Shown here piece by piece: positions 1,947 through 23,397 of a stretch of DNA of 32,000 bases. Source of the DNA: Mycolicibacterium smegmatis (GTDB lineage: Bacteria > Actinomycetota > Actinomycetes > Mycobacteriales > Mycobacteriaceae). The DNA is taken from contig NZ_LN831039.1 of NCBI RefSeq assembly GCF_001457595.1, forward strand, positions 2,100,001 through 2,132,000, given 5' to 3'. Position 1 is the stretch's first letter. The number at the start of each line of letters is the position of its first letter. The position numbers and the translations under genes are program-made. Under the pieces are notes generated by a model. The model made no database searches and was not told where the DNA came from. It worked only from the letters and a program-made list of their open reading frames with translations.

Positions 1947-3374
1947 TCAGGACTTGTCGTCCCCGGCGCCCTCGGTGCCGCTGTCGCCCTCTTGCGGCGG
2001 GTCGTTCTTCTGCAGGTCGGCGATCGCCTGGTCGATGGCGTCGTCGATCCCGCTCGTGTCGCCGCCGATCATGCGGTCGATGAACCCGGCCGGCTCGTCG
2101 AGATCGGACGCGCTGGGCAGCAGGTCCGGGTGCTGCCACACGCTGTCACGCGCGTCGGCGCCGACGGCCTCGGTCAGCCGCTCCCACAGCACGGCGGCCT
2201 CGCGCATCTTGCGGGGACGCAGTTCCAGCCCGACGAGCGTGGCGAAGGTCTGCTCGGCCGGTCCGCCGGTGGCGCGCCGGCGACGCATGGTCTCGGCCAT
2301 CGCCGACGTCCCGGGAATGCGCTCACCCAGCGCGCCGGAGACGACGGTCTGCACCCAGCCCTCGACGAGCGCCAGCAGCGTCTCGAGGCGTTCGAGCGCG
2401 GCCTCCTGCTCCGGGGTGGCCTTGGGTTCGAAGATGCCCTGGTTGAGCAGCTGCTCCATCTCCGACGGGTCGCTCAGCGACGCCGGGTTGAAGCCGCGTG
2501 CGAAGTCCTCGATGCCGGACATGTCGACCTTCATGCCTTTGGCGAAGGCCTCGACCGCACCCAGCAGCTGGCTCGACAGCCACGGGACGTGGCTGAACAG
2601 GCGGTGGTGTGCGGCCTCGCGCGCCGCGAGGAACGTCAGGATCTCGCTGCGGGGACGCTCGAGTCCCTCGGCGAACGCCTCGATGGCCTCCGGCAGCAGC
2701 GCCGCGACGCCCTTGGGGCCCAACGGAAGCCCGATGTCGGTGGAGGTCAGCACCTCTCGCGAGAGCTTGCCCAGCGCCTGACCCAGCTGTGAGCCGAACG
2801 CCATGCCGCCCATCTGCGACATCATCGCCAGCAGCGGGCCCGCCATGGCCTTGGCCTCTTCGGGCAGCGCCGCGGTCCACATCGTCGACACCTGCTCGGC
2901 GACCGGGTCGCACAACCGCTTCCAGGTCTCCATGGTGTTGTCCAGCCAATCGCTGGGCGTCCAGGCCACGGTGCGGGTGGTCCCGGCGGGCAGCGGGGTC
3001 ACACCGTCCAGCCACGTCTCGGCGAGCCGGACGGCGTCGGCCACCGCACCCGCGGTCTTCTCGGGCACCGGTGCGACGAACCCGATCGAGCTGTTGGCGA
3101 GTTGGCGGGCCAGGTCGTAGTTGACGGGGCCGGACTGTTTGCCGCCGGCCATCGCACTGCCGGCTCCGCTGAACATCTCACCGAGCTTGGTGAAGATCTG
3201 CCCGAGGTCGCCCATGTCGAAGCCGGCTCCGCCCATGCCCAAGCCGAACGGGTCCGACCCGGGGTTGCCGGAGCCGGAACCGGAGTCCGGGTCCTTCTTG
3301 TTCTTGTCTCGGTCCGGGTCGTCCCCGGCGGAGAAGCCGAAGGGCAGGTCAGCCATACCTGCAACCGTACTCAT
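1947..3374 (-). CDS. DUF2342 / zinc-dependent metalloprotease-like protein (Rv3195-like)
   Basis: 475-aa ORF. It has an acidic Gly-rich N-terminus and a conserved core (...FLAAREAAHHRLFSHVPWLSSQLLGAVEAFAKG...) that I recognise as the actinobacterial DUF2342 family. Assignment is from memory of the family, not from a search. Confidence 0.7.
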   Translation of the reverse strand: MSTVAGMADLPFGFSAGDDPDRDKNKKDPDSGSGSGNPGSDPFGLGMGGAGFDMGDLGQIFTKLGEMFSGAGSAMAGGKQSGPVNYDLARQLANSSIGFVAPVPEKTAGAVADAVRLAETWLDGVTPLPAGTTRTVAWTPSDWLDNTMETWKRLCDPVAEQVSTMWTAALPEEAKAMAGPLLAMMSQMGGMAFGSQLGQALGKLSREVLTSTDIGLPLGPKGVAALLPEAIEAFAEGLERPRSEILTFLAAREAAHHRLFSHVPWLSSQLLGAVEAFAKGMKVDMSGIEDFARGFNPASLSDPSEMEQLLNQGIFEPKATPEQEAALERLETLLALVEGWVQTVVSGALGERIPGTSAMAETMRRRRATGGPAEQTFATLVGLELRPRKMREAAVLWERLTEAVGADARDSVWQHPDLLPSASDLDEPAGFIDRMIGGDTSGIDDAIDQAIADLQKNDPPQEGDSGTEGAGDDKS

Positions 3375-4597: not shown

Positions 4598-7500
4598 GTG
4601 GGTATGCGGCCGACGGCAAGGATGCCGAAGCTGACGCGACGTAGTCGGGTCTTGATTGCTTTCGCGCTGGTGGCGGTGTTGCTGTTGCTGCTCGGGCCGC
4701 GGCTGATCGACACCTACGTCGACTGGCTGTGGTTCGGCGAACTCGGCTACCGCTCGGTGTTCACCACGGTGCTGGCCACCCGCCTGATCGTGTTCGTGGT
4801 CGTGGCGCTGGCGATCGGAGCCATCGTGTTCGCCGGTCTGGCACTGGCGTACCGGACCCGGCCGGTGTTCGTGCCGACCGCCGGCCCCAACGACCCGGTG
4901 GCGCGCTACCGCACGACGGTGATGGCGCGCCTGCGGCTGTTCGGTATCGGCGTCCCGGTGTTCATCGGGCTGCTGGCAGGCATCGTCGCGCAGAGCTACT
5001 GGGTGAAGATCCAGTTGTTCCTGCACGGCGGCGATTTCGGTATCACCGACCCCGAATTCGGCAAGGACCTCGGGTTCTACGCGTTCGATCTGCCGTTCTA
5101 CCGTCTGGTGCTGACGTACCTGTTCGTGGCGACGTTCCTGGCGTTCGTCGCGAACCTGTTGGGGCACTACCTTTTCGGCGGTATCCGTCTGACCGGGCGG
5201 GTCGGCGCGCTCAGCCGCGCCGCGCGCATCCAGTTGATCAGCCTCGCGGGCACGCTCATCGTGCTCAAGGCGTTCGCGTACTGGCTGGACCGCTACGAAC
5301 TGCTCAGCAACGATCGCTCGGCCAAGCCGTTCACGGGCGCGGGCTACACCGACATCAACGCCGTACTGCCGGCCAAGCTGATCATGCTCGCGATCGCGGT
5401 GATCTGCGCCGTGGCCGTGTTCTCCGCACTCGTGCTGCGGGACTTGCGCATTCCGGCCATCGGCGTGGCGTTGCTGCTGCTCAGCTCGCTGGTGGTGGGC
5501 GCGGGTTGGCCGCTGATCGTCGAGCAGTTCAGCGTCAAGCCCAACGCCGCGCAGAAGGAAGCCGAGTACATCAGCCGCAGTATCGAGGCGACCCGGCACG
5601 CCTACGGGCTCACCGATGAGACGGTGACCTACCGCAACTACGAGAACACCGGCCAGACCACCGCGGCTCAGGTCGCCGCCGACCGGGCGACCACGTCGAA
5701 CATCCGACTGCTCGACCCCACGATCGTCAGCCCCGCGTTCACCCAGTTCCAGCAGGGCAAGAACTTCTACTACTTCCCGGATCAGCTGTCCATCGACCGC
5801 TACATCGGCCCGGACGGCAACCTGCGCGATTACGTGGTGGCCGCGCGTGAACTCAACCCGGACCGGTTGATCGACAACCAGCGCGACTGGATCAACCGCC
5901 ACACCGTGTACACCCACGGCAACGGGTTCATCGCCTCACCGGCCAACACCGTGCGCGGTGTCGCCAACGACCCCAACCAGAACGGTGGTTACCCCGAGTT
6001 CCTCGCCAGCGTGGTCGGCGCGAACGGCAGCGTGATCTCGCCCGGACCGGCCCCGCTGGACCAGCCGCGCATCTACTTCGGCCCGGTCATCTCGAACACG
6101 CCCGCGGACTACGCGATCGTCGGCAAGACCGGTGACACCGACCGCGAGTACGACTACGAGACCAACACCGAGACCAAGAACTACACCTACGGCGGCAAGG
6201 GCGGTGTGCCGATCGGCAACTGGCTCAACCGCAGCGTGTTCGCCGCGAAGTTCGCCGAGCGGAACTTCCTGTTCTCCAACGTGATCGGCGAGAACAGCAA
6301 GATCCTGTTCAATCGCGACCCCGCCGAGCGCGTCGAGGCCGTCGCGCCGTGGCTGACCACAGACACCAGCGTGTATCCGGCCATCGTCAACAAGCGAATG
6401 GTGTGGATCGTCGACGGCTACACCACGCTGGACAACTACCCGTACTCGGAGTTGACGACGCTGTCGAGCGCGACCGCCGACTCCAACGAGGTGGCCGTCA
6501 ACCGGTTGGCGCCGGACAAGAAGGTGTCCTACATCCGCAACTCGGTGAAGGCCACCGTCGACGCCTACGACGGCACGGTCACGCTGTACGCGCAGGACGA
6601 GAACGATCCCGTGCTCAAGGCGTGGATGGACGTGTTCCCCGGAACGGTGAAGCCCAAAGCCGACATCACCCCGGAACTGCAGGCGCACCTGCGTTACCCC
6701 GAGGACCTGTTCAAGGTGCAGCGGGCCCTGCTCGCCAAGTACCACGTGGACAACCCCGTGACGTTCTTCTCGGCGCAGGACTTCTGGGACGTGCCGCTGG
6801 ATCCGAACCCGACGGCCAGCAGCTTCCAGCCGCCGTACTACATCGTCGCGAAAGACCTTGTGAAGAACGACAACTCGGCGTCGTTCCAGCTGACCAGTGC
6901 GCTGAACCGCTTCCAGCGCGACTTCCTGGCGGCCTATGTCAGTGCGAGCTCGGACCCCGAGACCTACGGCAAGCTCACGGTGCTGACCATCCCCGGTCAG
7001 GTCAACGGTCCCAAGCTGGCGTTCAACGCGATCAGTACCGACACCGCGGTCAGCCAGGACCTGGGTGTGATCGGTCGTGACAACCAGAACCGCATCCGCT
7101 GGGGCAACCTGCTCACGCTGCCGGTGGCCGACGGTGGCCTGCTCTACGTCGCACCGGTTTACGCCTCGCCGGGGTCCAGCGACGCCGCGTCGTCGTACCC
7201 GCGCCTCATCCGCGTGGCGATGCTGTACAACGACCGCGTCGGTTACGGTCCGACGGTCAGCGACGCCCTGACCGAACTGTTCGGTCCGGGCGCCGGTGCC
7301 ACCGCCACCGATGTCGCACCGGCAGAGGGTAGGCCGGCGCAGTCCACACCGAACGGGCAGCAGCCTGCCGCGTCACCGCCGCCTGCCGCCAATGCCGACG
7401 GCCGTCCGGCGCAGGCTCCGCCGCCTCCGTCGGCGGCAACGCCGACCGGGCCCGTGCAGATCTCGCAGGCCAAGGCCGAAGCGCTGCAGGACCTGGAGTC

Positions 7501-7609
7501 GGCACTCACGGCCGCGCAGGAGGCCCAGCGCAGCGGTGACTTCGCCGAGTACGGTCAGGCGTTGCAGCGTCTGAACGACGCGATGAAGAAGTACGACTCC
7601 GCGAAGTAG
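4598..7609 (+). CDS. UPF0182 family large polytopic membrane protein (Rv3193c-like)
   Basis: 1003-aa ORF. The N-terminus [22 protein letters not shown]...[22 protein letters not shown] and several TM segments are followed by a large soluble domain, all characteristic of UPF0182. The C-terminal ~110 aa are Pro/Ala-rich low complexity followed by a helix. Confidence 0.85.
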
Positions 7610-7624
7610 CTCTTCTCGCGAGAA

Positions 7625-7674
7625 GACACAAACCTGCCCTTTTCCACGCGAAAAGCGGCAGGTTTGTGTCTTTT
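7625..7674 (+). terminator. rho-independent terminator after the UPF0182 gene
   Basis: The 14-bp stem gacacaaacctgcc (7625-7638) pairs with ggcaggtttgtgtc (7657-7670) and is followed by tttt (7671-7674). The loop contains a small hairpin (cttttc...gaaaag). A 16-bp palindrome tcttctcgcgagaaga (7611-7626) lies just upstream. Confidence 0.7.
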
Positions 7675-7783
7675 CGCCCCTCAAAACGGGTTCGCCCGTC
7701 TCGGATATTGGTGCGCCATCGGGGCCCTCCGGTGGGTGAGAATTGACCGATACTCACTGACGGGCGGATTGGGGGAGTCGCTG

Positions 7784-8311
7784 ATGGCAGTGACGATCTC
7801 GCAGGTGCTCGCCAGCCGCCCTGCGCAACTGGCAGCAGCCGCCGCCGAGGTGGGCGCGGCGGCGAATGACCTCGGCAACCAGATCGCCCGTGAGCGCTTG
7901 CAGCTGACCAGGTTGGCTTCGGACTGGCGCGGCAGTGCGTCCGACACCGCACAGACACACGCCAACGAGATGTTCGGCGATCAGGAGCTCTACCGCGACC
8001 GGCTCACGTCCCTGCAGACGGCGATGGCTTCCGGTGGCGCAACGCTCGACGGCATCCGCACCTGGTTGTCGCAGCTGGTCTCGAGTCCGGAGGCGGACCT
8101 GTTCGACATCTCCGACGACGGCCGTGTCGCCCTGGGCTGGCGGCTGAAATTGCTTGTCGCGGCCTATCCCGTGCTGGCGATGAAATGGGGGATGCGGCGC
8201 CTGGCGCTGCAGACCGCCATCCAGACCGTATTGGCCGAATTCGACGCGGCGGACAAGGCGACGGCCGACAAGATGAACCGGATCCAGCAGGGGCTCGTGG
8301 GACATGGGTGA
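7784..8311 (+). CDS. WXG-motif protein (WXG100/EspA-like N-terminal helical hairpin with an ~80-aa C-terminal extension); putative type VII secretion substrate
   Basis: The ATG at 7784 is preceded by gggggag (7771-7777). The 175-aa helical N-terminus has W-R-G at residues 48-50 (nt 7925-7933: ...LTRLASDWRGSASDTAQ...), at the position expected for the WXG turn. Its stop overlaps the next start (ATGGGTGA). Confidence 0.6.
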   Translation: MAVTISQVLASRPAQLAAAAAEVGAAANDLGNQIARERLQLTRLASDWRGSASDTAQTHANEMFGDQELYRDRLTSLQTAMASGGATLDGIRTWLSQLVSSPEADLFDISDDGRVALGWRLKLLVAAYPVLAMKWGMRRLALQTAIQTVLAEFDAADKATADKMNRIQQGLVGHG

Positions 8312-9479
8312 CCCGACTCTCGACGTCGACGAGCAGACCATGCGCGACACCGCGTCGGTGTTCGACGAAACGGGCCGCGGTGTCAGCGGCAATCAGGCCG
8401 GACCGGCCATTTCCGGTGCGGCCGGGGCGATGCCCGCACTGGCGGTCGGCGCGGCGTGCGGGACAGTCGGGTTCGCCCTCACCGAGCAGGCGAAGCAGCT
8501 GGGGAGTGATGTGACGGTGTACGCGCAGAAGCTGCGGGTGGCCGCCGACCGCTACGAGCGCGGTGATGAGGAGGCGGCCGAACGGATCGATTTCGCCGGG
8601 ACAGCAGAGCTGCCCGACGCCGGCGAGCATCCCCCGGTGAGTGATTACGAGCAGGCGCTGCGTGATGCCGGGCTCCTCACCGGCCCGGTGGTACCCGGAT
8701 CCAGATACGCCCAGTGGCTTGAGAATGCGTCCAAGAACGGCGTGGCGCCGCAGACCATCGTCGACATCGCTCGCACACACAACATCACGCCGCAATCGTT
8801 CGACGTGCTCAACGGTCTGCAGGAGGTCAAGGACGAAGACGGCAAATCGTTCTTCATCCTGCCGTCCGGCACCAGCAAGGAAGACGCGAAGAAAGCGGTG
8901 GTGATGACCTACATCCTCAACGCCGGAACCGACTACGAAGCCGCCGAGGCCGGACGTGACGGAGTATTGGGCACCGCAGATGATGTCCAGAACGATTTCG
9001 AGGAAACGCCCTACTCGGCCGCCGAGGTGCAGCGCATCATCGATCGGCAGAACGCGAACTCCTGGAGTTACGACCAGATTTTCGACAAGGGCGGCGGGGG
9101 ATCATTGGCGACGACACCCAACGGCATGCTGATGGGGCTGGGAGGGCCGGTGATGGACACGATCGGTGTCCACGGCGGGACGACGTACGGTGACGTGTTC
9201 GTGGTCAACATCGACGGGTCCGAGGATCCGGCAGAGCAGCTGACAACGATCATCGAATCAGGCTCCAACTGGTACATGCGCGACGACGGTCAGTTGGTCC
9301 AGGGCCGCCTCGACCTGGATCGTCTGTTGCATCACGAGGAGCGTCATTCCCAGCAGTGGGCGCAGAAGGGATTCGTCCGGATGGCAAGGGATTACGGGCT
9401 GGGCGCGCTCATCGAAAAGCGGACGGGTGTGAATCCGCTGGAACGCGACGCCGGCTTGTCGGACGGGGGTTACGCGTGA
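8304..9479 (+). CDS. two-domain protein: EspC-like/T7SS-substrate N-terminus with a YxxxD motif plus a C-terminal ~290-aa domain containing HExxH (putative secreted metallopeptidase-like effector)
   Basis: 391 aa. The N-terminal ~95 aa (MGDPTLDVDEQTMRDTASVFDETG...LRVAADRYERGDEEAAERI) have Y84-E-R-G-D88 (nt 8553-8567) at the end of helix 2. The C-terminal part has HHEERH (res 343-348, nt 9330-9347) followed by SQQW, with Glu371 lying 23 residues after the second His. The gene overlaps both neighbours. Confidence 0.6.
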   Translation: MGDPTLDVDEQTMRDTASVFDETGRGVSGNQAGPAISGAAGAMPALAVGAACGTVGFALTEQAKQLGSDVTVYAQKLRVAADRYERGDEEAAERIDFAGTAELPDAGEHPPVSDYEQALRDAGLLTGPVVPGSRYAQWLENASKNGVAPQTIVDIARTHNITPQSFDVLNGLQEVKDEDGKSFFILPSGTSKEDAKKAVVMTYILNAGTDYEAAEAGRDGVLGTADDVQNDFEETPYSAAEVQRIIDRQNANSWSYDQIFDKGGGGSLATTPNGMLMGLGGPVMDTIGVHGGTTYGDVFVVNIDGSEDPAEQLTTIIESGSNWYMRDDGQLVQGRLDLDRLLHHEERHSQQWAQKGFVRMARDYGLGALIEKRTGVNPLERDAGLSDGGYA

Positions 9480-10021
9480 GGTTCTGGCTGGCCGTGTTGT
9501 CGGCACTGGTGCTGGCCGTGGGCCTTGTGGCGTGTGATACCGATGACGACGGATGGAATCCGGAAGCGCAGTTCGCCCCGGTGAAGCGTCCGGCGTTCGG
9601 TGCCCGGGAGACCGACGGCAAGCTGGTGATCTGGGTGCCGCCGGGTTGTGTCGGGGTGTGGTCGGTGAAGCTCATGTTCGGGCTGAGTGGGCCGGATCTG
9701 GTGTTGACCCCCACGGTCGGCACGGTGTCGTTTGACCGGTTCACCGTGGGCGGTCCGTACCCTCCGGGGATGGCCGTGACGAAAGCTCCTCCGCCCGATT
9801 TCGATTGGCGCACAGTCGATACGCTGCACCTCGATGTCGGGACTACTCCGGGAGGTTTTCCATCGACCTCGGTCGTGGCCGACATCGTCGAGAGTTCGGG
9901 TGATCACCCGGACAATACGTTCTTCTTCGACGGGGTCGGTTGGCTCGATCCCGAAGGGGTCGCTGCGCGGATAGGCAACGACTTCGAGGGCGTGTGCACC
10001 CCGCAGGAGACGCGAGGATAA
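9476..10021 (+). CDS. lipoprotein (candidate cognate immunity/partner protein)
   Basis: The GTG at 9476 overlaps the upstream stop (GTGA). The signal peptide VRFWLAVLSALVLAVGLVA|C carries a lipobox L-V-A-C, with Cys20 at nt 9533-9535. The mature ~160 aa show no recognisable family. Confidence 0.65.
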   Translation: MRFWLAVLSALVLAVGLVACDTDDDGWNPEAQFAPVKRPAFGARETDGKLVIWVPPGCVGVWSVKLMFGLSGPDLVLTPTVGTVSFDRFTVGGPYPPGMAVTKAPPPDFDWRTVDTLHLDVGTTPGGFPSTSVVADIVESSGDHPDNTFFFDGVGWLDPEGVAARIGNDFEGVCTPQETRG

Positions 10022-10059: not shown

Positions 10060-13000
10060 GTGCACTATCGCTTGCTCGGACCACTGCAGGTGGTGCATTC
10101 CGGCACGCCGGTCGACATCGGTGCCCCGAAACAACGGGCAGTCCTGGCGATGCTGTTGCTGGCACAGGGCCGCGTCGTGTCGGTCGATCGTCTGATTGAC
10201 GCAGTGTGGGGTGATGATCCACCGGCGAGCGCCACCGCCAGCCTGCAGGCCTACATCTCCAATCTGCGACGTGCGCTGCGTGACGGGTCCGACACCGCGC
10301 AGGTGGCGTCGCCGATCGTGCGTCAGCCGCCCGGGTACTACCTCGACGCACCCGCCGACGCCGTGGATCTGGCGCAGTTCACCGCAGGCTGTCAGCAGGC
10401 CGCGCAGGCTGTCGAGGAACAGCGCTGGGTCGATGCGCTGACCGCCGCCGATGAGGCGCTCGCGCTGTGGCGCGGTCCGTTCCTCGATGACCTGCGTGAC
10501 GAGCAGTGGGTCCACGAGGACGCCGCCCGCGCCGGCGAGTTGCGCAGCGAGTGCGTGGACCACCGCATCACCGCGCTGCTGGCCCTCGGGCGGGTTTCGA
10601 CGGCGCTGGCCGCCGTCACGCAACTGCGTTCGGCCGAACCGCTTTCCGACCGTGCCTGCTGGTTGCACATGCTGACGCTGTATCGCGCGGGCCGCGCCCC
10701 GGAGGCCCTTGACGCCTACACCCGCCATGCGCAGATGCTCGACAACGTACTGGGACTGGTCCCGGGCGCCGAACTGCGCGAGTTGCAGACCGCGATCCTG
10801 CGCCAGGCGCCCGAACTCGCCGCGTGGCCCAGGTCCCCGGAGTGGACCGGTGCCGAGGAGGTGCACACCCCCGCCCCGCCGCACCCGCCCGTGCCCGAAC
10901 CGGGCGCCCAGCGTGGTTTGCTCATCGGGCGCAAGCGTGAACTCGCCGTCGCCACCGACCTTCTGGCCGACGTGGCGGCGGGGGAGACGCGGTGGCTGGT
11001 GCTCTCGGGGCCACCAGGTATCGGCAAGACCAGGCTCGCCGAGGAGATCACCGACGGGTGCGACGCCGAGGTCGTGTGGGTGTCCTGCCCGGACGAACGG
11101 TCGACGCCACCGTGGTGGCCCATGCGACAACTCGTGCGCGCGTTGGGCGCCGACGCCGACGAGGTGCTGGAGGTGCCGCCCCACGCCGACCCTGACACCG
11201 CGCGTTTCCAGGTGTACGAGCGTGTGCAGGCCCTGCTGGAATCGACGGGCCGGCCCGCGGTCGTGGTGATCGATGATGTGCAATGGGCGGATTCGACCTC
11301 GGCCAGTTGCCTCGCCTACATCGCCGGCGCACTGCGGGACCATCCGGTCGCGATCGTGCTCACCGTACGCGACGTCGACCACACCGCCGAGGTCGCGCGT
11401 CTGCTGGCGACCGTCGCACGTGGCGACGGCAACCGTCACCTGGCGCTCTCGTCGTTGTCGACCGATGATGTTGCGGCACTGGCGAATCAGATTTCCGAGG
11501 ACGTCGTCGACCACGCCGAGGCACAGATACTGGCCGAACGCACCGGTGGCAACCCGTTCTTCGTATCCGAATACGCGCGCCTGCCCCGTGCCGAACGCGG
11601 TGAGATCCCCGTGGCCGTGAAATCGGTGCTCGACCGGCGCCTCGCCGGGCTCGATCCGGGGGTGCTCGCGGTACTGCGGGTCGCCGCGGTGATCGGCGAC
11701 CCGATCGACGCCGACGTGGTTCCCGTGCTGGCGCGGGTCGCCAAGATCGACTTCGACACGCTCGCAGACCATCTGGATGCCGCGGCCGACGAGCGCATCG
11801 TGGTCAACGCGCACACCGGCGATGGCTACACGTTCGCCCATGGACTGTTGCGTGACCACCTGATGGCCGGCCTGCCCGCGCTGCGTCGGCAGCGCCTGCA
11901 TGCCCAGGTGGCCGAGGTGTTGGCGGGCAACCCGTCCGACGACGCGATCACCCGCCGGGCCCAGCATCTGGTTGCGGCCCAACCGTTGGTCGACCCCGTC
12001 GAGGTGGTCGCCGCGTGCCGTCTGGCCGCGGAGGCGGCCACCCAACGGTGGAGTTCGGACATCGCGGCGGGATGGTGGCAGGCCGCGCTCGACGCCTACG
12101 ACCGGGTGCCGGTCGCGTCGCGCAGTGAAACCGAGCGCGACGCGCTGACTGTGGCGATGCTGGAAGCACATTCACGCGCCGGGCGGGGCCGCACGGTGCT
12201 GGGTTACGTCGAACGTCACCTCACCGAGGCATTGCGCAATGAACGCGCCGACACCGCGGGTCTGGTCGCCAGCGTGCTGTTGCGGTCCAGTGGTGGATGG
12301 CCGTGGCTGGCCCCCGGCGATGATCCGGGTGCACTGCTGACGTTGTTGCAGCGCGCCGCGGAGATGGCTGCCGAGCACCCGGCGGCCGGAGCGCGTGTGT
12401 TGGCAGCACTGGGCGTCGGGTGCTGCTATCACCCCGATCCCGGGGTGGCCGCAGGCCACCTCGACCGCGCCGAGCGCCTCGCCGAACGCACCGAGGATCC
12501 CGATGTGCTCGCCGACGTGTTGATGGGCCGGCTCATCACCTATTCGGGTGTCAACGAACGCAGTCACGAGATCTTCGAATGGGTCGCGCGGCTTGAGGTG
12601 TTGCAGCACAGCAGGTCCCGTGAGGATTCGGTGATCGCCCACTCGGTGGCGACGATGTCGGCAATGCTGCTGGCCGACACCGAGCTGACCGAGCGCCACC
12701 TCAGGGCCGGGGTGGTGGGCAGCGAAGAGCTGCAGCTACCGGTTCTGCGTGCCCAATTGCGGTGGATGGAAGCGGTATTGGCGACGTGGCGCGGTGACTT
12801 CGACGAGGCGCAGCGCCACCACTCGATCGCGGCGCACGTGCACGAGCAGACCGAACTCTACGGCGCGGGAAGCGGTCTGCTGGCCGAGGTGACCCTGCTG
12901 CGTGAGATCGGCGGCCCCGTCCCGGCCGGGTTCGGGGTCACACCTGCCGATGTCGAGCGAGGCGGGCAGGGGATGGAGGCCATGGTGCATGTCGCCCTGC

Positions 13001-13470
13001 TGACCATCGAGCGCGGCCCACGCGCCGCGGCCGCCACGCGATTGGACAACTGGGTCAACACCGACCGCGGACAGATCTGGACCAACCTCGGCGAGGCGGC
13101 CTGGATGGCCCATCTGGCGGTCGACTACGGGCTGGGCGAGTACGCCGAGCCGCTGCTGGCGGTCCTGCAGCCGTTCACCGATCGCATCGCGGTGATCGGA
13201 CAGGTGGGGCACGCCGGGCCGGTGGCGCTCGCCACCGCCAGACTGCACGCGCTGCGCGGTGATCGCGCCCGGGCACTCGAAGATCTGGCCAAAGCCGAGG
13301 ACGTCGCGCGTCGTACCGGTGCCAGGCCCACACTGCTGCGCTGTGCGCTGCTGGCCTGCGAGCTCGCCGAGGACGGGGCGGCCCGGCGCCAAGCCGCCGC
13401 CAAGCTTGCCGCCGACGCCGAGGCGATGGGCATGCACGGGATCGCCGCGCAGGCCCGTGCATTGTCCTGA
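10060..13470 (+). CDS. AfsR/SARP-family regulator with STAND architecture: OmpR-type winged helix plus BTAD, then a P-loop NTPase, then a TPR-like C-terminus
   Basis: 1136 aa. The N-terminus YRLLGPLQV...GAPKQRAVLAMLLL...VSVDRLIDAVWGDDPP...LQAYISNLRRAL is SARP-type. The BTAD signature is ...LALWRGPFLDDL...LYRAGRAPEALDAY. The Walker A is LVLSGPPGIGKTRLA, and the tail is long and helical-repeat. GTG start. Confidence 0.85.
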   Translation: MHYRLLGPLQVVHSGTPVDIGAPKQRAVLAMLLLAQGRVVSVDRLIDAVWGDDPPASATASLQAYISNLRRALRDGSDTAQVASPIVRQPPGYYLDAPADAVDLAQFTAGCQQAAQAVEEQRWVDALTAADEALALWRGPFLDDLRDEQWVHEDAARAGELRSECVDHRITALLALGRVSTALAAVTQLRSAEPLSDRACWLHMLTLYRAGRAPEALDAYTRHAQMLDNVLGLVPGAELRELQTAILRQAPELAAWPRSPEWTGAEEVHTPAPPHPPVPEPGAQRGLLIGRKRELAVATDLLADVAAGETRWLVLSGPPGIGKTRLAEEITDGCDAEVVWVSCPDERSTPPWWPMRQLVRALGADADEVLEVPPHADPDTARFQVYERVQALLESTGRPAVVVIDDVQWADSTSASCLAYIAGALRDHPVAIVLTVRDVDHTAEVARLLATVARGDGNRHLALSSLSTDDVAALANQISEDVVDHAEAQILAERTGGNPFFVSEYARLPRAERGEIPVAVKSVLDRRLAGLDPGVLAVLRVAAVIGDPIDADVVPVLARVAKIDFDTLADHLDAAADERIVVNAHTGDGYTFAHGLLRDHLMAGLPALRRQRLHAQVAEVLAGNPSDDAITRRAQHLVAAQPLVDPVEVVAACRLAAEAATQRWSSDIAAGWWQAALDAYDRVPVASRSETERDALTVAMLEAHSRAGRGRTVLGYVERHLTEALRNERADTAGLVASVLLRSSGGWPWLAPGDDPGALLTLLQRAAEMAAEHPAAGARVLAALGVGCCYHPDPGVAAGHLDRAERLAERTEDPDVLADVLMGRLITYSGVNERSHEIFEWVARLEVLQHSRSREDSVIAHSVATMSAMLLADTELTERHLRAGVVGSEELQLPVLRAQLRWMEAVLATWRGDFDEAQRHHSIAAHVHEQTELYGAGSGLLAEVTLLREIGGPVPAGFGVTPADVERGGQGMEAMVHVALLTIERGPRAAAATRLDNWVNTDRGQIWTNLGEAAWMAHLAVDYGLGEYAEPLLAVLQPFTDRIAVIGQVGHAGPVALATARLHALRGDRARALEDLAKAEDVARRTGARPTLLRCALLACELAEDGAARRQAAAKLAADAEAMGMHGIAAQARALS

Positions 13471-21909: not shown

Positions 21910-23397
21910 GAGGAATTGTCAATACCTGTGGATCGGGGTGTTTCAGGCGACCTCCGTTCCGGCGTGCTGACCGCCGTCTGAGGGCGATGTTGGCGGGGTG
22001 ATGTCGGTGGGTCGTTCGAGCAGTCTGCCTTTATGGAAGACCGCGCCGGCGCGGACCAGGGCGACCAGGTGTGGGGCGTTGACGGCACGCCAGCGGGCCG
22101 CGGCGGCGTCGATGAGCTTGTAGGCCATCGCTAGTCCGGCCGCTCGTGATCCGGGCCCCTTGGTGACCTTGGTCCTCAAACGCACTGTGGCAAAGGTGGA
22201 TTCGATCGGATTCGTCGTTCGCAGATGAATCCAATGTTCGGCCGGATACTTGTAGAATTCCAGCAGCACATCGAGGTCGTCGGTGATCTTAGCGACCGCC
22301 TTGGGATACTTCGCGCCGAAGTCGGCCTCGAAGGCCTTGACCGCGATCTGGGCCTTGTCGATATCCTCGGCGTTGTAGATCTCCTTGATCGCCGCCAGCG
22401 CCGACGGGTGCGCTGATTTCGGCAGTGCAGCAAGAACATTGGCCTGCTTATGAAACCAGCACCGCTGCTCTTTGGTGGCCGGGAAAACCTCGCGGACTGC
22501 TTTCCAGAACCCGAGCGCGCCATCGCCGATCGCGAGTACGGGGGCGGTCATGCCGCGGCGCTTGCAGTCGCGCAACAGATCGGCCCACGACTCGGCCGAC
22601 TCGCGGTAGCCGTCGGTGATCGCCACGAGCTCCTTGCGGCCATCAGCACGCACGCCCAGCATCACCAGCAGACAGAGCTTTTCCTGGTCCAGCCGCACCT
22701 TGAGGTGAATGCCGTCGACCCACAGATACACGCAATCAGTGGCCGAGAGGTCGCGGGCCCCAAACGCGCGGGCCTCGTCTTGCCACTGCGCCGTGAGCCG
22801 GGTGATCGTGCTGGCCGACAGCCCAGCGCCGGAGCCGAGGAACTGCTCGAGGGCAGGGGTGAAATCGTTGCTCGACAGGCCGTGCAGGTACAGCAGCGGC
22901 AGTACCTCGCTCATCTGCGGCGACTTGCGCGCCCAGGCCGGCAGGATCGCCGAGGAGAACCGCTTGCGTTCACCGGTGTCGGGGTCGACACGGCGGTCGT
23001 TGACCCGCGGCGCTTTCACCTGCACCGCGCCGGCGGCGGTCAGCACCTCCCGGGGCTGGTGATAGCCGTTTCGCACCACCAACCGGTGACCGTTCTCGTC
23101 GAGTTGATCGGCGAACTGCGCCACGTAGGCGGCGACCTCGGCCTGCAACGCCGCGGCCAGCATCTGCCGGGCCCCGTCGCGGACGATCTCATCCAACAAC
23201 GACCGACCAGCACCGCTGGCCTTGTCGTTGGCGTCCTCGGTGTCGTGAACTACGGTGAGCATGGGCGTACCTTCCCAACCAGCGCGCCAACGCCGGTCTT
23301 GATCGAATACCTGATTCCGTGAAGATCATCCCCGGGAAGGTGCGCCCATCTTCACGCCCCCACACCGAGGCTCATCCACAGGTATTGATCATTGCTC
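21910..23397 (-). mobile_element. complete IS256-family insertion sequence (IS6120-like), copy 2, 1488 bp
   Basis: The imperfect terminal inverted repeats are gaggaattgtcaatacctgtggat (left) and the reverse complement of atccacaggtattgatcattgctc (right). There is a single 439-aa transposase and a flanking 9-bp direct repeat. Size, IR length and 9-bp duplication match my recollection of IS6120 from M. smegmatis. Confidence 0.9.
21943..23262 (-). CDS. IS256-family (mutator-type) transposase
   Basis: 439 aa: ...LLDEIVRDGARQMLAAALQAEVAAYV...YLWVDGIHLKVRL...LVAITDGYRESAESWADLLRDCKRRGM...LAIGDGALGFWKAVREVFP...QRCWFHKQANVL...HLRTTNPIESTF. The DDE/MULE signature is typical of IS256 transposases. Confidence 0.9.
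   Translation of the reverse strand: MLTVVHDTEDANDKASGAGRSLLDEIVRDGARQMLAAALQAEVAAYVAQFADQLDENGHRLVVRNGYHQPREVLTAAGAVQVKAPRVNDRRVDPDTGERKRFSSAILPAWARKSPQMSEVLPLLYLHGLSSNDFTPALEQFLGSGAGLSASTITRLTAQWQDEARAFGARDLSATDCVYLWVDGIHLKVRLDQEKLCLLVMLGVRADGRKELVAITDGYRESAESWADLLRDCKRRGMTAPVLAIGDGALGFWKAVREVFPATKEQRCWFHKQANVLAALPKSAHPSALAAIKEIYNAEDIDKAQIAVKAFEADFGAKYPKAVAKITDDLDVLLEFYKYPAEHWIHLRTTNPIESTFATVRLRTKVTKGPGSRAAGLAMAYKLIDAAAARWRAVNAPHLVALVRAGAVFHKGRLLERPTDITPPTSPSDGGQHAGTEVA

What the first reader, a model, noticed from the sequence alone, without database searches (positions are those of the whole stretch)
7784..10021. Orphan EspA/EspC-like (WXG + YxxxD) type VII secretion substrate pair fused to an HExxH domain and followed by a lipoprotein: candidate T7SS effector/immunity operon
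Three ORFs are translationally coupled: ATGGGTGA at 8304-8311 and GTGA at 9476-9479. They sit directly after a strong terminator, so they look like an autonomous operon. Gene 1 has a helical N-terminus with W-x-G at residues 48-50. Gene 2 starts with a ~95-aa helical domain ending in Y-x-x-x-D (YERGD) followed by acidic residues. In mycobacterial ESX substrates, one partner of a heterodimer carries WXG and the other carries YxxxD/E (EsxA/EsxB, EspA/EspC), and together these form the export signal. Here the YxxxD partner is extended by ~290 aa containing HExxH, and the third gene encodes a lipoprotein. That layout is the logic of LXG/WXG polymorphic toxin loci: secretion domain, then toxin, then immunity. 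No ecc/mycP secretion genes are in the window, so this would be an orphan substrate locus. I do not recognise it as a characterised system.
Basis: partly seen in the sequence, partly recalled or inferred. Interest (0 to 1): 0.8.

Follow-up and report, generated by a model that had tools for sequence, protein, structure and literature searches.

The report
Type VII-secreted toxin with lipoprotein immunity
This three-gene operon of Mycolicibacterium smegmatis (MSMEG_1960-1962) most likely encodes a toxin exported by the type VII secretion system, its helical export partner and a protective lipoprotein; the type of system was first demonstrated in mycobacteria in 2026, but this toxin domain is uncharacterised.

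Summary
There are three overlapping genes after a very strong hairpin. Gene 1 has WXG (res 48-50). Gene 2 has YERGD (84-88) and HEERH (344-348). Gene 3 has a lipobox.

Gene 1 scores just under the WXG100 Pfam threshold, and the gene 2 N-terminus passes the EspC threshold. In 82 related loci, the gene 2 C-domain is fused to at least five different T7SS-type N-domains. All 70 full-length versions are followed by a gene 3-type lipoprotein, often duplicated. Gene 1 homologues occur only with the EspC-type N-domain. Distant relatives of the last ~100 residues sit at the tips of RHS proteins, a classic toxin position.

The conserved core is GGTTYG...HExxHxxQW...E...GGY. It resembles small zincin metallopeptidases (DUF4157/eCIS_core, Tox-MPTase4) but stays below every threshold, and a confident AlphaFold model has no PDB match.

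The system type is no longer new. EatA/Tap/EatI of M. abscessus (Nat Commun, June 2026) has the same logic, and that paper notes many such loci with unknown payloads. This is a new member: an uncatalogued toxin domain and immunity family in a tractable model organism. Activity, target and which ESX system exports it remain untested.

The parts
7618..7676 (+). Strong hairpin (terminator-like) after the upstream UPF0182 gene, MSMEG_1959
   Evidence: 27-bp stem, -47.8 kcal/mol, z = -10.7. Relatives have a hairpin of different sequence at the same place.
7701..7783 (+). Conserved 5' region of the operon. It holds an imperfect inverted repeat (CCATCGG at 7716-7722, CCGGTGG at 7729-7735) and a Shine-Dalgarno GGAG at 7774-7777. 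The promoter is not identified.
   Evidence: this block is conserved in 7 species, while the sequence upstream of it is not. No sigma-70-like site was found. No SigM -35 GGAACCG with up to 1 mismatch occurs in 7610-7783.
7784..8311 (+). Gene 1 (MSMEG_1960), 175 aa. A WXG100-like helical partner (WXG at res 48-50, nt 7925-7933) with an ~85-aa C-terminal extension.
   Evidence: WXG100 at 26.5 bits, TIGR03930 at 29 bits. (W48 and G50 conserved). (found only upstream of EspC-type toxins). (a natural fusion of a gene 1-like protein to the toxin domain, P0116). PMC3963859 (co-purifies with MSMEG_1961).
8304..8639 (+). Gene 2 (MSMEG_1961) N-terminal domain, res 1-112. An EspC/CFP-10-like helical hairpin ending in YERGD (res 84-88, nt 8553-8567), then a linker.
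   Evidence: PF10824, 25.7 bits against a cut-off of 23.5. (profile aligns with EsxB, E 0.03). (AF2 helices 10-41 and 47-85). (Y84, G87, D88 conserved).
8640..9479 (+). Gene 2 C-terminal domain, res 113-391. Predicted toxin domain, not in Pfam or NCBIfam. The conserved core module is res ~285-391 (nt 9156-9476): GGTTYG, H344-E-x-x-H348-x-x-Q351-W352 (nt 9333-9359), E380 and GGY390.
   Evidence: invariant residues. (AF2 pLDDT 93, pTM 0.91). (no PDB fold match). (the module at RHS tips and in WXG proteins). (weak DUF4157/eCIS_core and Tox-MPTase4 similarity).
9476..10021 (+). Gene 3 (MSMEG_1962), 181 aa. A lipoprotein (signal peptide plus lipobox LVAC, Cys20 at nt 9533-9535) and the predicted immunity/inhibitor protein.
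   Evidence: directly downstream of the toxin in 71 of 82 loci, and in 70 of 70 full-length ones. (lipobox in most homologues). (invariant C20, C58, C174). (tandem and fused duplicates, 39-85% identical).

Best explanation
MSMEG_1960-1962 is an autonomous operon encoding a type VII secretion (ESX) toxin-immunity module.

1. **Export signal (inferred).** The WXG100-like protein (gene 1) and the EspC/CFP-10-like N-terminal hairpin of gene 2 pair into a four-helix bundle. This places WXG next to YxxxD and forms the composite ESX export signal.
2. **Export route (inferred).** The complex is exported by an ESX machine encoded elsewhere. ESX-4 is the most likely, by analogy.
3. **Toxin activity (inferred).** The C-terminal domain of gene 2 is a metal-dependent hydrolase, most likely a small zincin-type metallopeptidase. 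The proposed zinc ligands are H344, H348 and E380, E345 would be the catalytic base, and Q351, W352 and Y390 are conserved nearby. It acts in the cell envelope of neighbouring actinobacteria.
4. **Immunity (inferred).** Gene 3 is a Sec-exported, disulfide-bonded lipoprotein on the outer face of the producer's membrane. It binds and blocks the toxin.

Shown here: the gene anatomy, the HMM similarities, the modular co-conservation and the RHS-tip relatives. Not shown: secretion, which ESX system, enzymatic activity, the target, and inhibition by gene 3.
For: **T7SS targeting**
- WXG100 and EspC HMM matches.
- A family profile aligns with EsxB/CFP-10 including YxxxD/E.
- The motifs are conserved.
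- The AF2 model shows a helical hairpin ending at Y84.
- Gene 1 homologues occur only with the EspC-type N-domain.
- A natural fusion joins a gene 1-like protein to the toxin domain.
- An Actinoplanes locus has the reverse split: a small EspC-like gene upstream of the toxin.
- eccB lies next to the locus in three genomes.
- MSMEG_1960 and MSMEG_1961 co-purify in M. smegmatis (PMC3963859).

**Toxin**
- The same C-domain (50-60% identical) is fused to EspC, EspA/EspE, DUF4226, WXG100, DUF6317 and PF21725-type N-domains.
- In Mumia, a neighbouring gene shares the N-domain at 71% identity but has a different C-terminus.
- The core module ends a 1357-aa RHS protein and two RHS-tip fragments.

**Immunity acting outside the cytoplasm**
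- A gene 3-type lipoprotein follows 70 of 70 full-length toxins, often as 2-3 diverged copies or fused doublets.
- An invariant Cys pair is present in gene 3 homologues.
- Distant toxin modules carry a conserved Cys pair.
- Distant toxins are followed by a 176-aa lipoprotein or a multi-pass membrane protein.
- N-terminally truncated toxin genes lack immunity genes.

**Metallopeptidase**
- HExxHxxQW, E380 and GGY are invariant across the superfamily.
- This is the HExxHxxQ-E signature described for the DUF4157/PVC-metallopeptidase (PMC3482391).
- There are weak eCIS_core and Tox-MPTase4 HMM hits.
- A DUF4157 phage protein is among the top two BFVD fold hits, at probability 0.84.

**Precedent**
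- EatA/TapA1-2/EatI has the same layout, is ESX-4 dependent and has a lipoprotein inhibitor (PMC13444075).
Against: - No experiment addresses secretion, toxicity or immunity for this family.
- Gene 1 is just below the WXG100 thresholds.
- A confident model of the C-domain (pLDDT 93) has no PDB fold match, metallopeptidases included.
- All HMM links to zincins are below threshold.
- The residues inside HExxH are polar (E346, R347), which is unusual for zincins.
- No T7SS genes lie nearby.
- No SigM -35 motif lies upstream, so there is no positive link to ESX-4 in M. smegmatis.
- The C-domain is unusually well conserved across the phylum for a conflict protein.
- About ten mycobacterial genomes keep an intact toxin domain with no secretion domain and no immunity gene. 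This would also fit a non-toxic role.
Confidence: 0.65

Rival explanations
1. The proteins form a self-directed envelope-remodelling system rather than a weapon. The exported hydrolase trims the producer's own cell wall or surface proteins, for example to let T7SS substrates pass, or during growth or conjugation. The lipoprotein is its regulator or membrane anchor.
For: - The C-domain is highly conserved across distant actinomycetes, 53-59% identical.
- Intact stand-alone copies without immunity genes occur at a fixed chromosomal site in about ten mycobacteria.
- SigM/ESX-4 regulon hydrolases are discussed as possible remodelling enzymes (PMC13491425).
- A dedicated wall hydrolase that aids T7SSb secretion is known in S. 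aureus (title and abstract).
Against: - The module sits at RHS tips.
- N-domains are swapped among family members.
- A neighbouring gene in Mumia has the same N-domain but a different payload.
- Immunity-like genes are duplicated and diverged.
- The distribution is patchy and the position shifts relative to neighbouring genes.

These are traits of polymorphic toxins, not of housekeeping enzymes.
Confidence: 0.2
2. The locus is a toxin-immunity pair, but the C-domain is not a peptidase. The HExxH helix binds a metal for another chemistry, such as a lipid, lipid II or glycan hydrolase, or has a non-enzymatic role such as membrane disruption.
For: - No PDB fold match, despite a confident model.
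- All zincin HMM matches are sub-threshold.
- The polar residues E346 and R347 sit inside the motif, and H343 is conserved in the subfamily.
- A 170-residue extra subdomain (res 113-285) of unknown role is present.
Against: - HExxHxxQ plus a downstream invariant Glu is the signature of DUF4157/PVC-type zincins (alignment).
- The weak hits recur in the same register.
- A DUF4157 phage protein is among the top two viral fold hits.
Confidence: 0.2
3. The protein is an effector aimed at eukaryotic grazers or hosts such as amoebae or macrophages, by analogy with ESX-1 Esp proteins. The lipoprotein would have an unrelated role.
For: - Public annotation calls the protein 'ESX-1 secretion-associated'.
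- ESX substrates of pathogens act on host cells (general knowledge).
Against: - The family is mostly in soil actinomycetes (Nocardia, Micromonospora, Actinoplanes, Amycolatopsis, Mumia).
- The strict pairing with a lipoprotein, 70 of 70, implies self-protection in the envelope.
- No M. tuberculosis or M. abscessus protein appeared among the 120 hits listed for each of two searches.
Confidence: 0.05

Closest known systems
EatA / TapA1-TapA2 / EatI of Mycobacterium abscessus (PMC13444075, Nat Commun 2026)
   Same: - Small WXG100-type partner gene(s) lie upstream.
- The toxin has a helical N-terminal targeting domain and a C-terminal enzyme.
- A lipoprotein inhibitor lies immediately downstream.
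- The locus is separate from the esx locus.
- That paper reports many similar loci across Actinomycetota, 47% with unknown payloads, and lipoprotein immunities for envelope-targeting toxins.
   Different: - The payload here is an uncatalogued HExxH domain, not a GH183 arabinanase.
- There is one 175-aa partner rather than two Taps.
- The toxin's own N-domain is EspC/CFP-10-like with YxxxD, whereas EatA's clusters with T7SSb LXG-type domains.
- MSMEG_1962 has no detected relation to EatI. This was not tested directly.
- The family is not restricted to mycolic-acid bacteria, so the target cannot be arabinogalactan.
- ESX-4 dependence is unknown here.
WXG/LXG polymorphic toxin systems predicted by comparative genomics (Zhang et al. 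2012, PMC3482391), including Tox-MPTase1-5 and the PVC-metallopeptidase (DUF4157, now Pfam eCIS_core)
   Same: - T7SS-type N-domain plus a swappable C-terminal toxin plus a downstream immunity gene.
- Small HExxH toxin domains at RHS tips.
- The HExxHxxQ-E signature matches H344-E-x-x-H348-x-x-Q351 plus E380.
   Different: - No Pfam model of these families reaches threshold. The best scores are eCIS_core 15.2 bits against 22 and Tox-MPTase4 14.3 against 25.
- Tox-MPTase1 is not in Pfam and could not be compared.
- That survey lists no immunity protein for the Tox-MPTase families.
- The M. smegmatis form has a large extra subdomain.
EsxA-EsxB (ESAT-6/CFP-10) and EspA-EspC type ESX substrate pairs
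   Same: One partner carries WXG and the other YxxxD/E. Both are helical hairpins, and their genes are adjacent and translationally coupled.
   Different: - The YxxxD partner carries a 280-aa enzyme-like domain.
- The WXG partner is 175 aa.
- The locus is not in an esx cluster.
- Gene 1 does not match the EspA/EspE model.
CpnT/TNT with EsxE-EsxF and IFT of M. tuberculosis
   Same: A mycobacterial toxin encoded with a WXG100 pair and an immunity factor, and dependent on ESX-4.
   Different: - CpnT's toxin acts in the host cytosol.
- Its immunity protein is cytoplasmic.
- Its N-domain is an outer-membrane channel.
TelC/TipC of Streptococcus intermedius (T7SSb)
   Same: A T7SS toxin that acts outside the cytoplasmic membrane and is neutralised by a surface-exposed immunity protein (abstract).
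   Different: - It is an LXG toxin of Firmicutes.
- It has lipid II phosphatase chemistry.
- The proteins are unrelated in sequence.

Membership tests
WXG100 (Pfam PF06013 / TIGR03930), gene 1 | HMM score at or above the curated cut-off | tested here: not met
   26.5 bits against 27.3 (E 7.8e-6); 29 bits against 44.85. This is a near miss, and the alignment covers 75 of 86 profile positions.
WXG100 (Pfam PF06013 / TIGR03930), gene 1 | Conserved W-x-G in the turn of a helical hairpin | tested here: met
   W48-R-G50 is present. W and G are at least 90% conserved in 21 homologues.
WXG100 (Pfam PF06013 / TIGR03930), gene 1 | Size of about 100 residues | tested here: not met
   175 aa. An 85-residue C-terminal extension is conserved in the homologues.
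T7SS_ESX_EspC (Pfam PF10824), gene 2 residues 1-100 | HMM score at or above the gathering cut-off | tested here: met
   25.7 bits against 23.5, residues 8-96 on profile positions 7-99 of 100. 45 of 94 family members also match.
ESX (T7SSa) substrate pair | YxxxD/E at the end of helix 2 of the partner of the WXG protein | tested here: met
   Y84-E-R-G-D88 lies at the end of predicted helix 47-85. Y, G and D are at least 90% conserved. It aligns with the CFP-10 tail.
ESX (T7SSa) substrate pair | Heterodimeric four-helix bundle and ESX-dependent secretion | not testable with these tools
   No multimer prediction or experiment was available. The only indirect support is co-purification of MSMEG_1960 and MSMEG_1961 (PMC3963859).
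Polymorphic toxin system (Zhang et al. 2012) | The same C-terminal domain is joined to different N-terminal trafficking domains, and the same N-domain to different C-termini | tested here: met
   EspC, EspA/EspE, DUF4226, WXG100, DUF6317, PF21725 and RHS contexts. In Mumia, two adjacent genes share the N-domain at 71% identity.
Polymorphic toxin system (Zhang et al. 2012) | A cognate immunity gene lies immediately downstream | tested here: inconclusive
   A conserved lipoprotein gene lies downstream in 70 of 70 full-length loci, often duplicated. Protection itself was not tested.
Eat-like ESX toxin locus (PMC13444075) | Tap/WXG100-like partner gene(s) upstream, helical N-domain on the toxin, lipoprotein inhibitor downstream | tested here: met
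   There is one partner gene here rather than two.
Eat-like ESX toxin locus (PMC13444075) | ESX-4-dependent delivery and toxicity to neighbouring mycobacteria | not testable with these tools
   No SigM -35 motif lies upstream. The family's presence in many non-mycobacterial actinomycete genera is only suggestive of an ESX-4-like exporter.
Zincin metallopeptidase of the eCIS_core/DUF4157 (PF13699) or Tox-MPTase4 (PF15640) type | HExxH (HExxHxxQ in DUF4157) plus a downstream Glu ligand, all conserved | tested here: met
   H344, E345, H348, Q351, W352 and E380 are invariant in 15 diverse sequences, including the RHS tips. D387 is not conserved, so it is not a ligand.
Zincin metallopeptidase of the eCIS_core/DUF4157 (PF13699) or Tox-MPTase4 (PF15640) type | HMM score at or above the gathering cut-off | tested here: not met
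   The best scores are eCIS_core 15.2 bits against 22 (E 0.024) and Tox-MPTase4 14.3 against 25 (E 0.04), both in distant relatives. The M. smegmatis protein and the family consensus give nothing.
Zincin metallopeptidase of the eCIS_core/DUF4157 (PF13699) or Tox-MPTase4 (PF15640) type | Zincin fold | tested here: inconclusive
Bacterial lipoprotein, gene 3 | Signal peptide with a lipobox Cys | tested here: met
   The protein begins MRFWLAVLSALVLAVGLVAC. Cys20 is invariant in 46 homologues.

The most novel reading that the evidence does not exclude
The C-terminal domain is a structurally new metalloenzyme toxin with no PDB fold match. It would attack an envelope component common to all actinobacteria rather than a mycobacteria-specific one, and be neutralised by a new lipoprotein inhibitor family. 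M. smegmatis, used so far only as prey in ESX-toxin studies, would then itself be an ESX-armed competitor. That would give a tractable system for finding a new envelope target and for asking how a T7SS toxin crosses a neighbour's mycomembrane.
Probability: 0.3. Interest if true: 0.7.

Novelty: new member of a known kind. Interest (0 to 1): 0.5.

Why it matters
T7SS-delivered antibacterial toxins were demonstrated in mycobacteria only in 2026, with a single characterised payload, an arabinanase. This locus adds several things.

- **A second payload.** It is widespread and uncatalogued: 282 species-level genomes and 152 clusters at 50% identity, including RHS tips.
- **A new immunity family.** The predicted immunity lipoprotein is also uncatalogued.
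- **A simpler targeting design.** The toxin is appended to the CFP-10-like half of a classical WXG/YxxxD pair.
- **A tractable host.** It sits in M. smegmatis mc2155, the standard laboratory model, so secretion route, target and immunity can be tested directly.

If the target is a conserved envelope component, it could point to a new antibacterial vulnerability in Actinomycetota.

Tried and rejected
**Aspzincin idea.** I considered HExxH plus GTxDxxYG with D387 as the third ligand. This was rejected because D387 is replaced by Ala or Glu in distant relatives, whereas E380 is invariant.

**Fold searches.**
- Foldseek against the PDB, with both the full-length and the domain-only models, gave no hit below E 0.5.

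**Sequence searches.**
- Searches against PDB chains with the single protein and two profiles gave no enzyme match.
- Pfam and NCBIfam gave nothing on the C-domain or its consensus.

**Regulation.**
- No SigM -35 motif (GGAACCG, up to 1 mismatch) lies between 7610 and 7783.
- No sigma-70-like promoter was found.
- Clark et al. 2018, which describes the M. smegmatis SigM regulon, is not held. The supplementary tables of the Eat paper are not held either.

**M. abscessus link.** I asked whether the SigM-induced trio Mab_1286c-1284c (WXG100, EspA-like, lipoprotein-like) belongs to this family. No M. abscessus protein appeared among the top 120 relatives of a Mycobacteroides member, so no link is claimed.

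**Distant immunity candidates.** The gene 3 family HMM against the genes downstream of distant toxins gave no significant similarity. Only the lipoprotein nature and size are shared.

**Mobile elements.** The C-domain was found on one plasmid and in no phage.

**Literature.** The only relevant mention of MSMEG_1960 and MSMEG_1961 is an affinity-purification/mass-spectrometry (AP-MS) study reporting their co-purification. A search for DUF4226 found nothing relevant.


Full report
**Origin and anatomy**

The window is from Mycolicibacterium smegmatis. The three proteins are identical to MSMEG_1960, MSMEG_1961 and MSMEG_1962.

- Gene 1 runs 7784-8311 (175 aa), gene 2 runs 8304-9479 (391 aa) and gene 3 runs 9476-10021 (181 aa from GTG).
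- The upstream gene (UPF0182) ends at 7609. It is followed by a 27-bp hairpin at 7618-7676 (-47.8 kcal/mol, z = -10.7).
- Related species carry a hairpin of different sequence at the same place, followed by a conserved 80-nt leader and a GGAG before the start codon.
- The ten largest other ORFs of the window encode no ESX machinery.

**Targeting module**

- Gene 1 matches WXG100 (E 7.8e-6, 26.5 bits, 0.8 bit under Pfam's cut-off) and TIGR03930 (E 9e-7).
- Residues 8-96 of gene 2 pass the Pfam EspC threshold.
- A profile of the family aligns end to end with CFP-10/EsxB. YERGDEE falls on the CFP-10 YxxxD/E tail (E about 0.03).
- The AlphaFold model has helices at 10-41 and 47-85, with Y84 at the end of the second.
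- W48/G50 and Y84/G87/D88 are at least 90% conserved in about 20 homologues down to 31% identity.

The two parts co-vary. Among 82 loci that encode the gene 2 C-domain, gene 1 homologues are found in 20. These are the loci whose toxin has the EspC-type N-domain.

Three further observations tie the helical proteins to the payload.
- One assembly encodes a gene 1-like protein fused directly to the payload (39% identity over 152 aa).
- An Actinoplanes locus has the opposite split: a small EspC-like gene overlaps the start of a toxin with another N-domain.
- An affinity-purification study found MSMEG_1960 and MSMEG_1961 together in M. smegmatis extracts (PMC3963859). Both are therefore expressed and probably associated.

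**Payload**

Residues 113-391 have no Pfam, NCBIfam or PDB-sequence match.

The domain is nevertheless widespread. A scan of one genome per species found 282 relatives. They occur in Mycobacteriaceae, Nocardia, Amycolatopsis, Actinoplanes, Micromonospora, Mumia, Nocardioides and others, at 50-60% identity.

It behaves as a cassette.
- It is joined to EspC, EspA/EspE, DUF4226, WXG100, DUF6317 and PF21725-type N-domains.
- In Mumia, the adjacent gene has the same 210-aa N-domain (71% identity) but an unrelated 650-aa C-terminus.

An exhaustive profile search of 1.84 billion representatives found only 152 clusters. The most distant ones keep just the last ~100 residues. They include a 1357-aa protein with 17 RHS repeats, two RHS-tip fragments and WXG-type proteins.

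Aligning them defines the core as GGT[TS]xG, HExxHxxQW, a conserved Tyr, E380, AG and GGY. D387 is not conserved.

HExxHxxQ plus a downstream Glu is the signature given for the PVC-metallopeptidase/DUF4157 zincins (PMC3482391). Other evidence for a zincin is weak but consistent.
- Some relatives give sub-threshold hits to eCIS_core (the current Pfam name of DUF4157) and Tox-MPTase4, in the same register.
- A DUF4157 phage protein is the second-best viral fold hit (probability 0.84).

Against a standard zincin:
- A very confident model (pLDDT 93, pTM 0.91) matches nothing in the PDB.
- The two inner residues of the motif are polar.

I therefore rate a metallopeptidase as the most likely chemistry, but not as established.

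**Immunity candidate**

Gene 3 is a lipoprotein (lipobox LVAC).

- A homologue lies directly downstream of the toxin in 71 of 82 loci, and in all 70 loci whose toxin has an N-terminal domain.
- Most carry a recognisable lipobox.
- C20, C58 and C174 are invariant. This suggests a disulfide, and therefore an extracytoplasmic location.
- Many loci have two or three diverged copies (60-85% identical) or fused doublets (39-60%). This is typical of immunity genes.
- Distant toxin modules carry their own conserved Cys pair.
- Distant toxins are followed by a 176-aa lipoprotein or by a multi-pass membrane protein.

Conversely, about ten mycobacterial genomes have a toxin domain with no N-domain, lying between a DUF5130 gene and an ~865-aa gene I take, from its conserved N-terminal sequence, to be aminopeptidase N (pepN). 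These have no lipoprotein gene, and two carry internal stops.

Together this indicates a toxin that is harmless in the cytoplasm and acts in the envelope. Because the family extends beyond mycolic-acid bacteria, the target is probably a general envelope component.

**Which ESX system?**

This is unknown.
- eccB lies next to the locus in three genomes.
- The precedent, EatA, uses ESX-4 (PMC13444075).
- No SigM -35 motif lies upstream in M. smegmatis.
- I could not show that the similarly arranged SigM-induced trio of M. abscessus (Mab_1286c-1284c, PMC13491425) is homologous.

**Comparison and novelty**

The logic is that of WXG/LXG polymorphic toxins, which were predicted in 2012 (PMC3482391). 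It is also that of the EatA/Tap/EatI system, shown experimentally in June 2026 (PMC13444075). That paper also states that such loci are common in Actinomycetota, that 47% have payloads of unknown function, and that envelope-acting toxins pair with lipoprotein immunities.

This locus is therefore a new member of a known kind. What is new:
- the payload family and its immunity family, neither of which is in Pfam or NCBIfam;
- the simple architecture, with the toxin on the CFP-10-like partner and a single WXG100 partner;
- its presence in the model organism.

Its interest score of 0.8 is lowered mainly because of the 2026 precedent.

Noticed in passing
L030, L049, L055, L056, L058, L060, L062, L070, L073, L074, L075 (toxin ORF near 6000-6830 in each): N-terminally truncated copies of the toxin domain (~275 aa, HHEERH intact). 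Ten of the eleven (not L060) lie directly after a DUF5130 gene; in the five inspected (L030, L049, L055, L056, L073) an ~865-aa gene I take to be pepN lies on the opposite strand. They have no secretion domain and no lipoprotein gene. L062 and L070 have an internal stop. They may be relics or may have been put to another use.
   Followed up: partly
L028 2160-4733 and 5380-6819; L048 likewise: In Mumia, two adjacent genes share a 210-aa N-terminal domain (71% identity) but have different C-termini. One is 857 aa with no Pfam match and the other carries the HExxH domain. This looks like a small polymorphic-toxin array.
   Followed up: partly
L026 3942-5441 (-), also L044 and L046; L026 8461-10947 (-): A DUF4226-type member of the family lies next to a divergently transcribed eccB. 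A DUF5631/DUF5632 protein is encoded nearby. Which ESX locus this is was not determined.
   Followed up: partly
P0116 (433 aa) and P0107 (393 aa), metagenome/SRA assemblies: A gene 1-like WXG protein is fused in one chain to the toxin domain, skipping the EspC-type hairpin. This is a natural fusion linking the partner to the payload.
   Followed up: partly
window 7701-7760: A conserved leader block upstream of gene 1 holds an imperfect inverted repeat (CCATCGG n6 CCGGTGG; CACCGG n6 CCGGTG in relatives). It may be an operator. No promoter was recognised.
   Followed up: no
window 10060-13470 (+): A large SARP/AfsR-type regulator (Trans_reg_C, BTAD, AAA_16) lies 38 nt downstream of the operon. 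In two relatives (L013, L014) it lies upstream of the trio instead, so the trio has moved relative to it. Any regulatory link is unknown.
   Followed up: partly
window 21943-23262 (-): A Mutator-family transposase gene (Transposase_mut, E 1e-62) lies about 12 kb downstream of the operon.
   Followed up: no
window 1947-3374 (-): This gene encodes a Zincin_2 (PF10103) metallopeptidase-like protein. It is unrelated in sequence to the gene 2 domain.
   Followed up: no
MSMEG_1960/1961 in PMC3963859: Both proteins co-purified specifically with MSMEG_0358 (annotated as the ribonucleotide reductase beta subunit) and with a signal peptide peptidase, MSMEG_1476. This association is unexplained.
   Followed up: no
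M. abscessus Mab_1286c-1284c (PMC13491425, Table 1): A SigM-induced operon has the same layout (WXG100 protein, 'EspA-like' protein, lipoprotein-like protein). I could not establish whether its middle gene carries this toxin domain.
   Followed up: partly
L084 4176-4706; L083 7796-8329: Two genes were found downstream of distant members of the toxin superfamily. One encodes a 176-aa lipoprotein with Cys positions like gene 3 but no significant sequence similarity. The other encodes a 177-aa multi-pass membrane protein after the RHS toxin.
   Followed up: partly
NZ_CP094290.1 (Georgenia sp. TF02-10 plasmid) 59895-60605: This is the only plasmid-borne copy of the toxin domain in PLSDB. None was found in phage genomes.
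   Followed up: no
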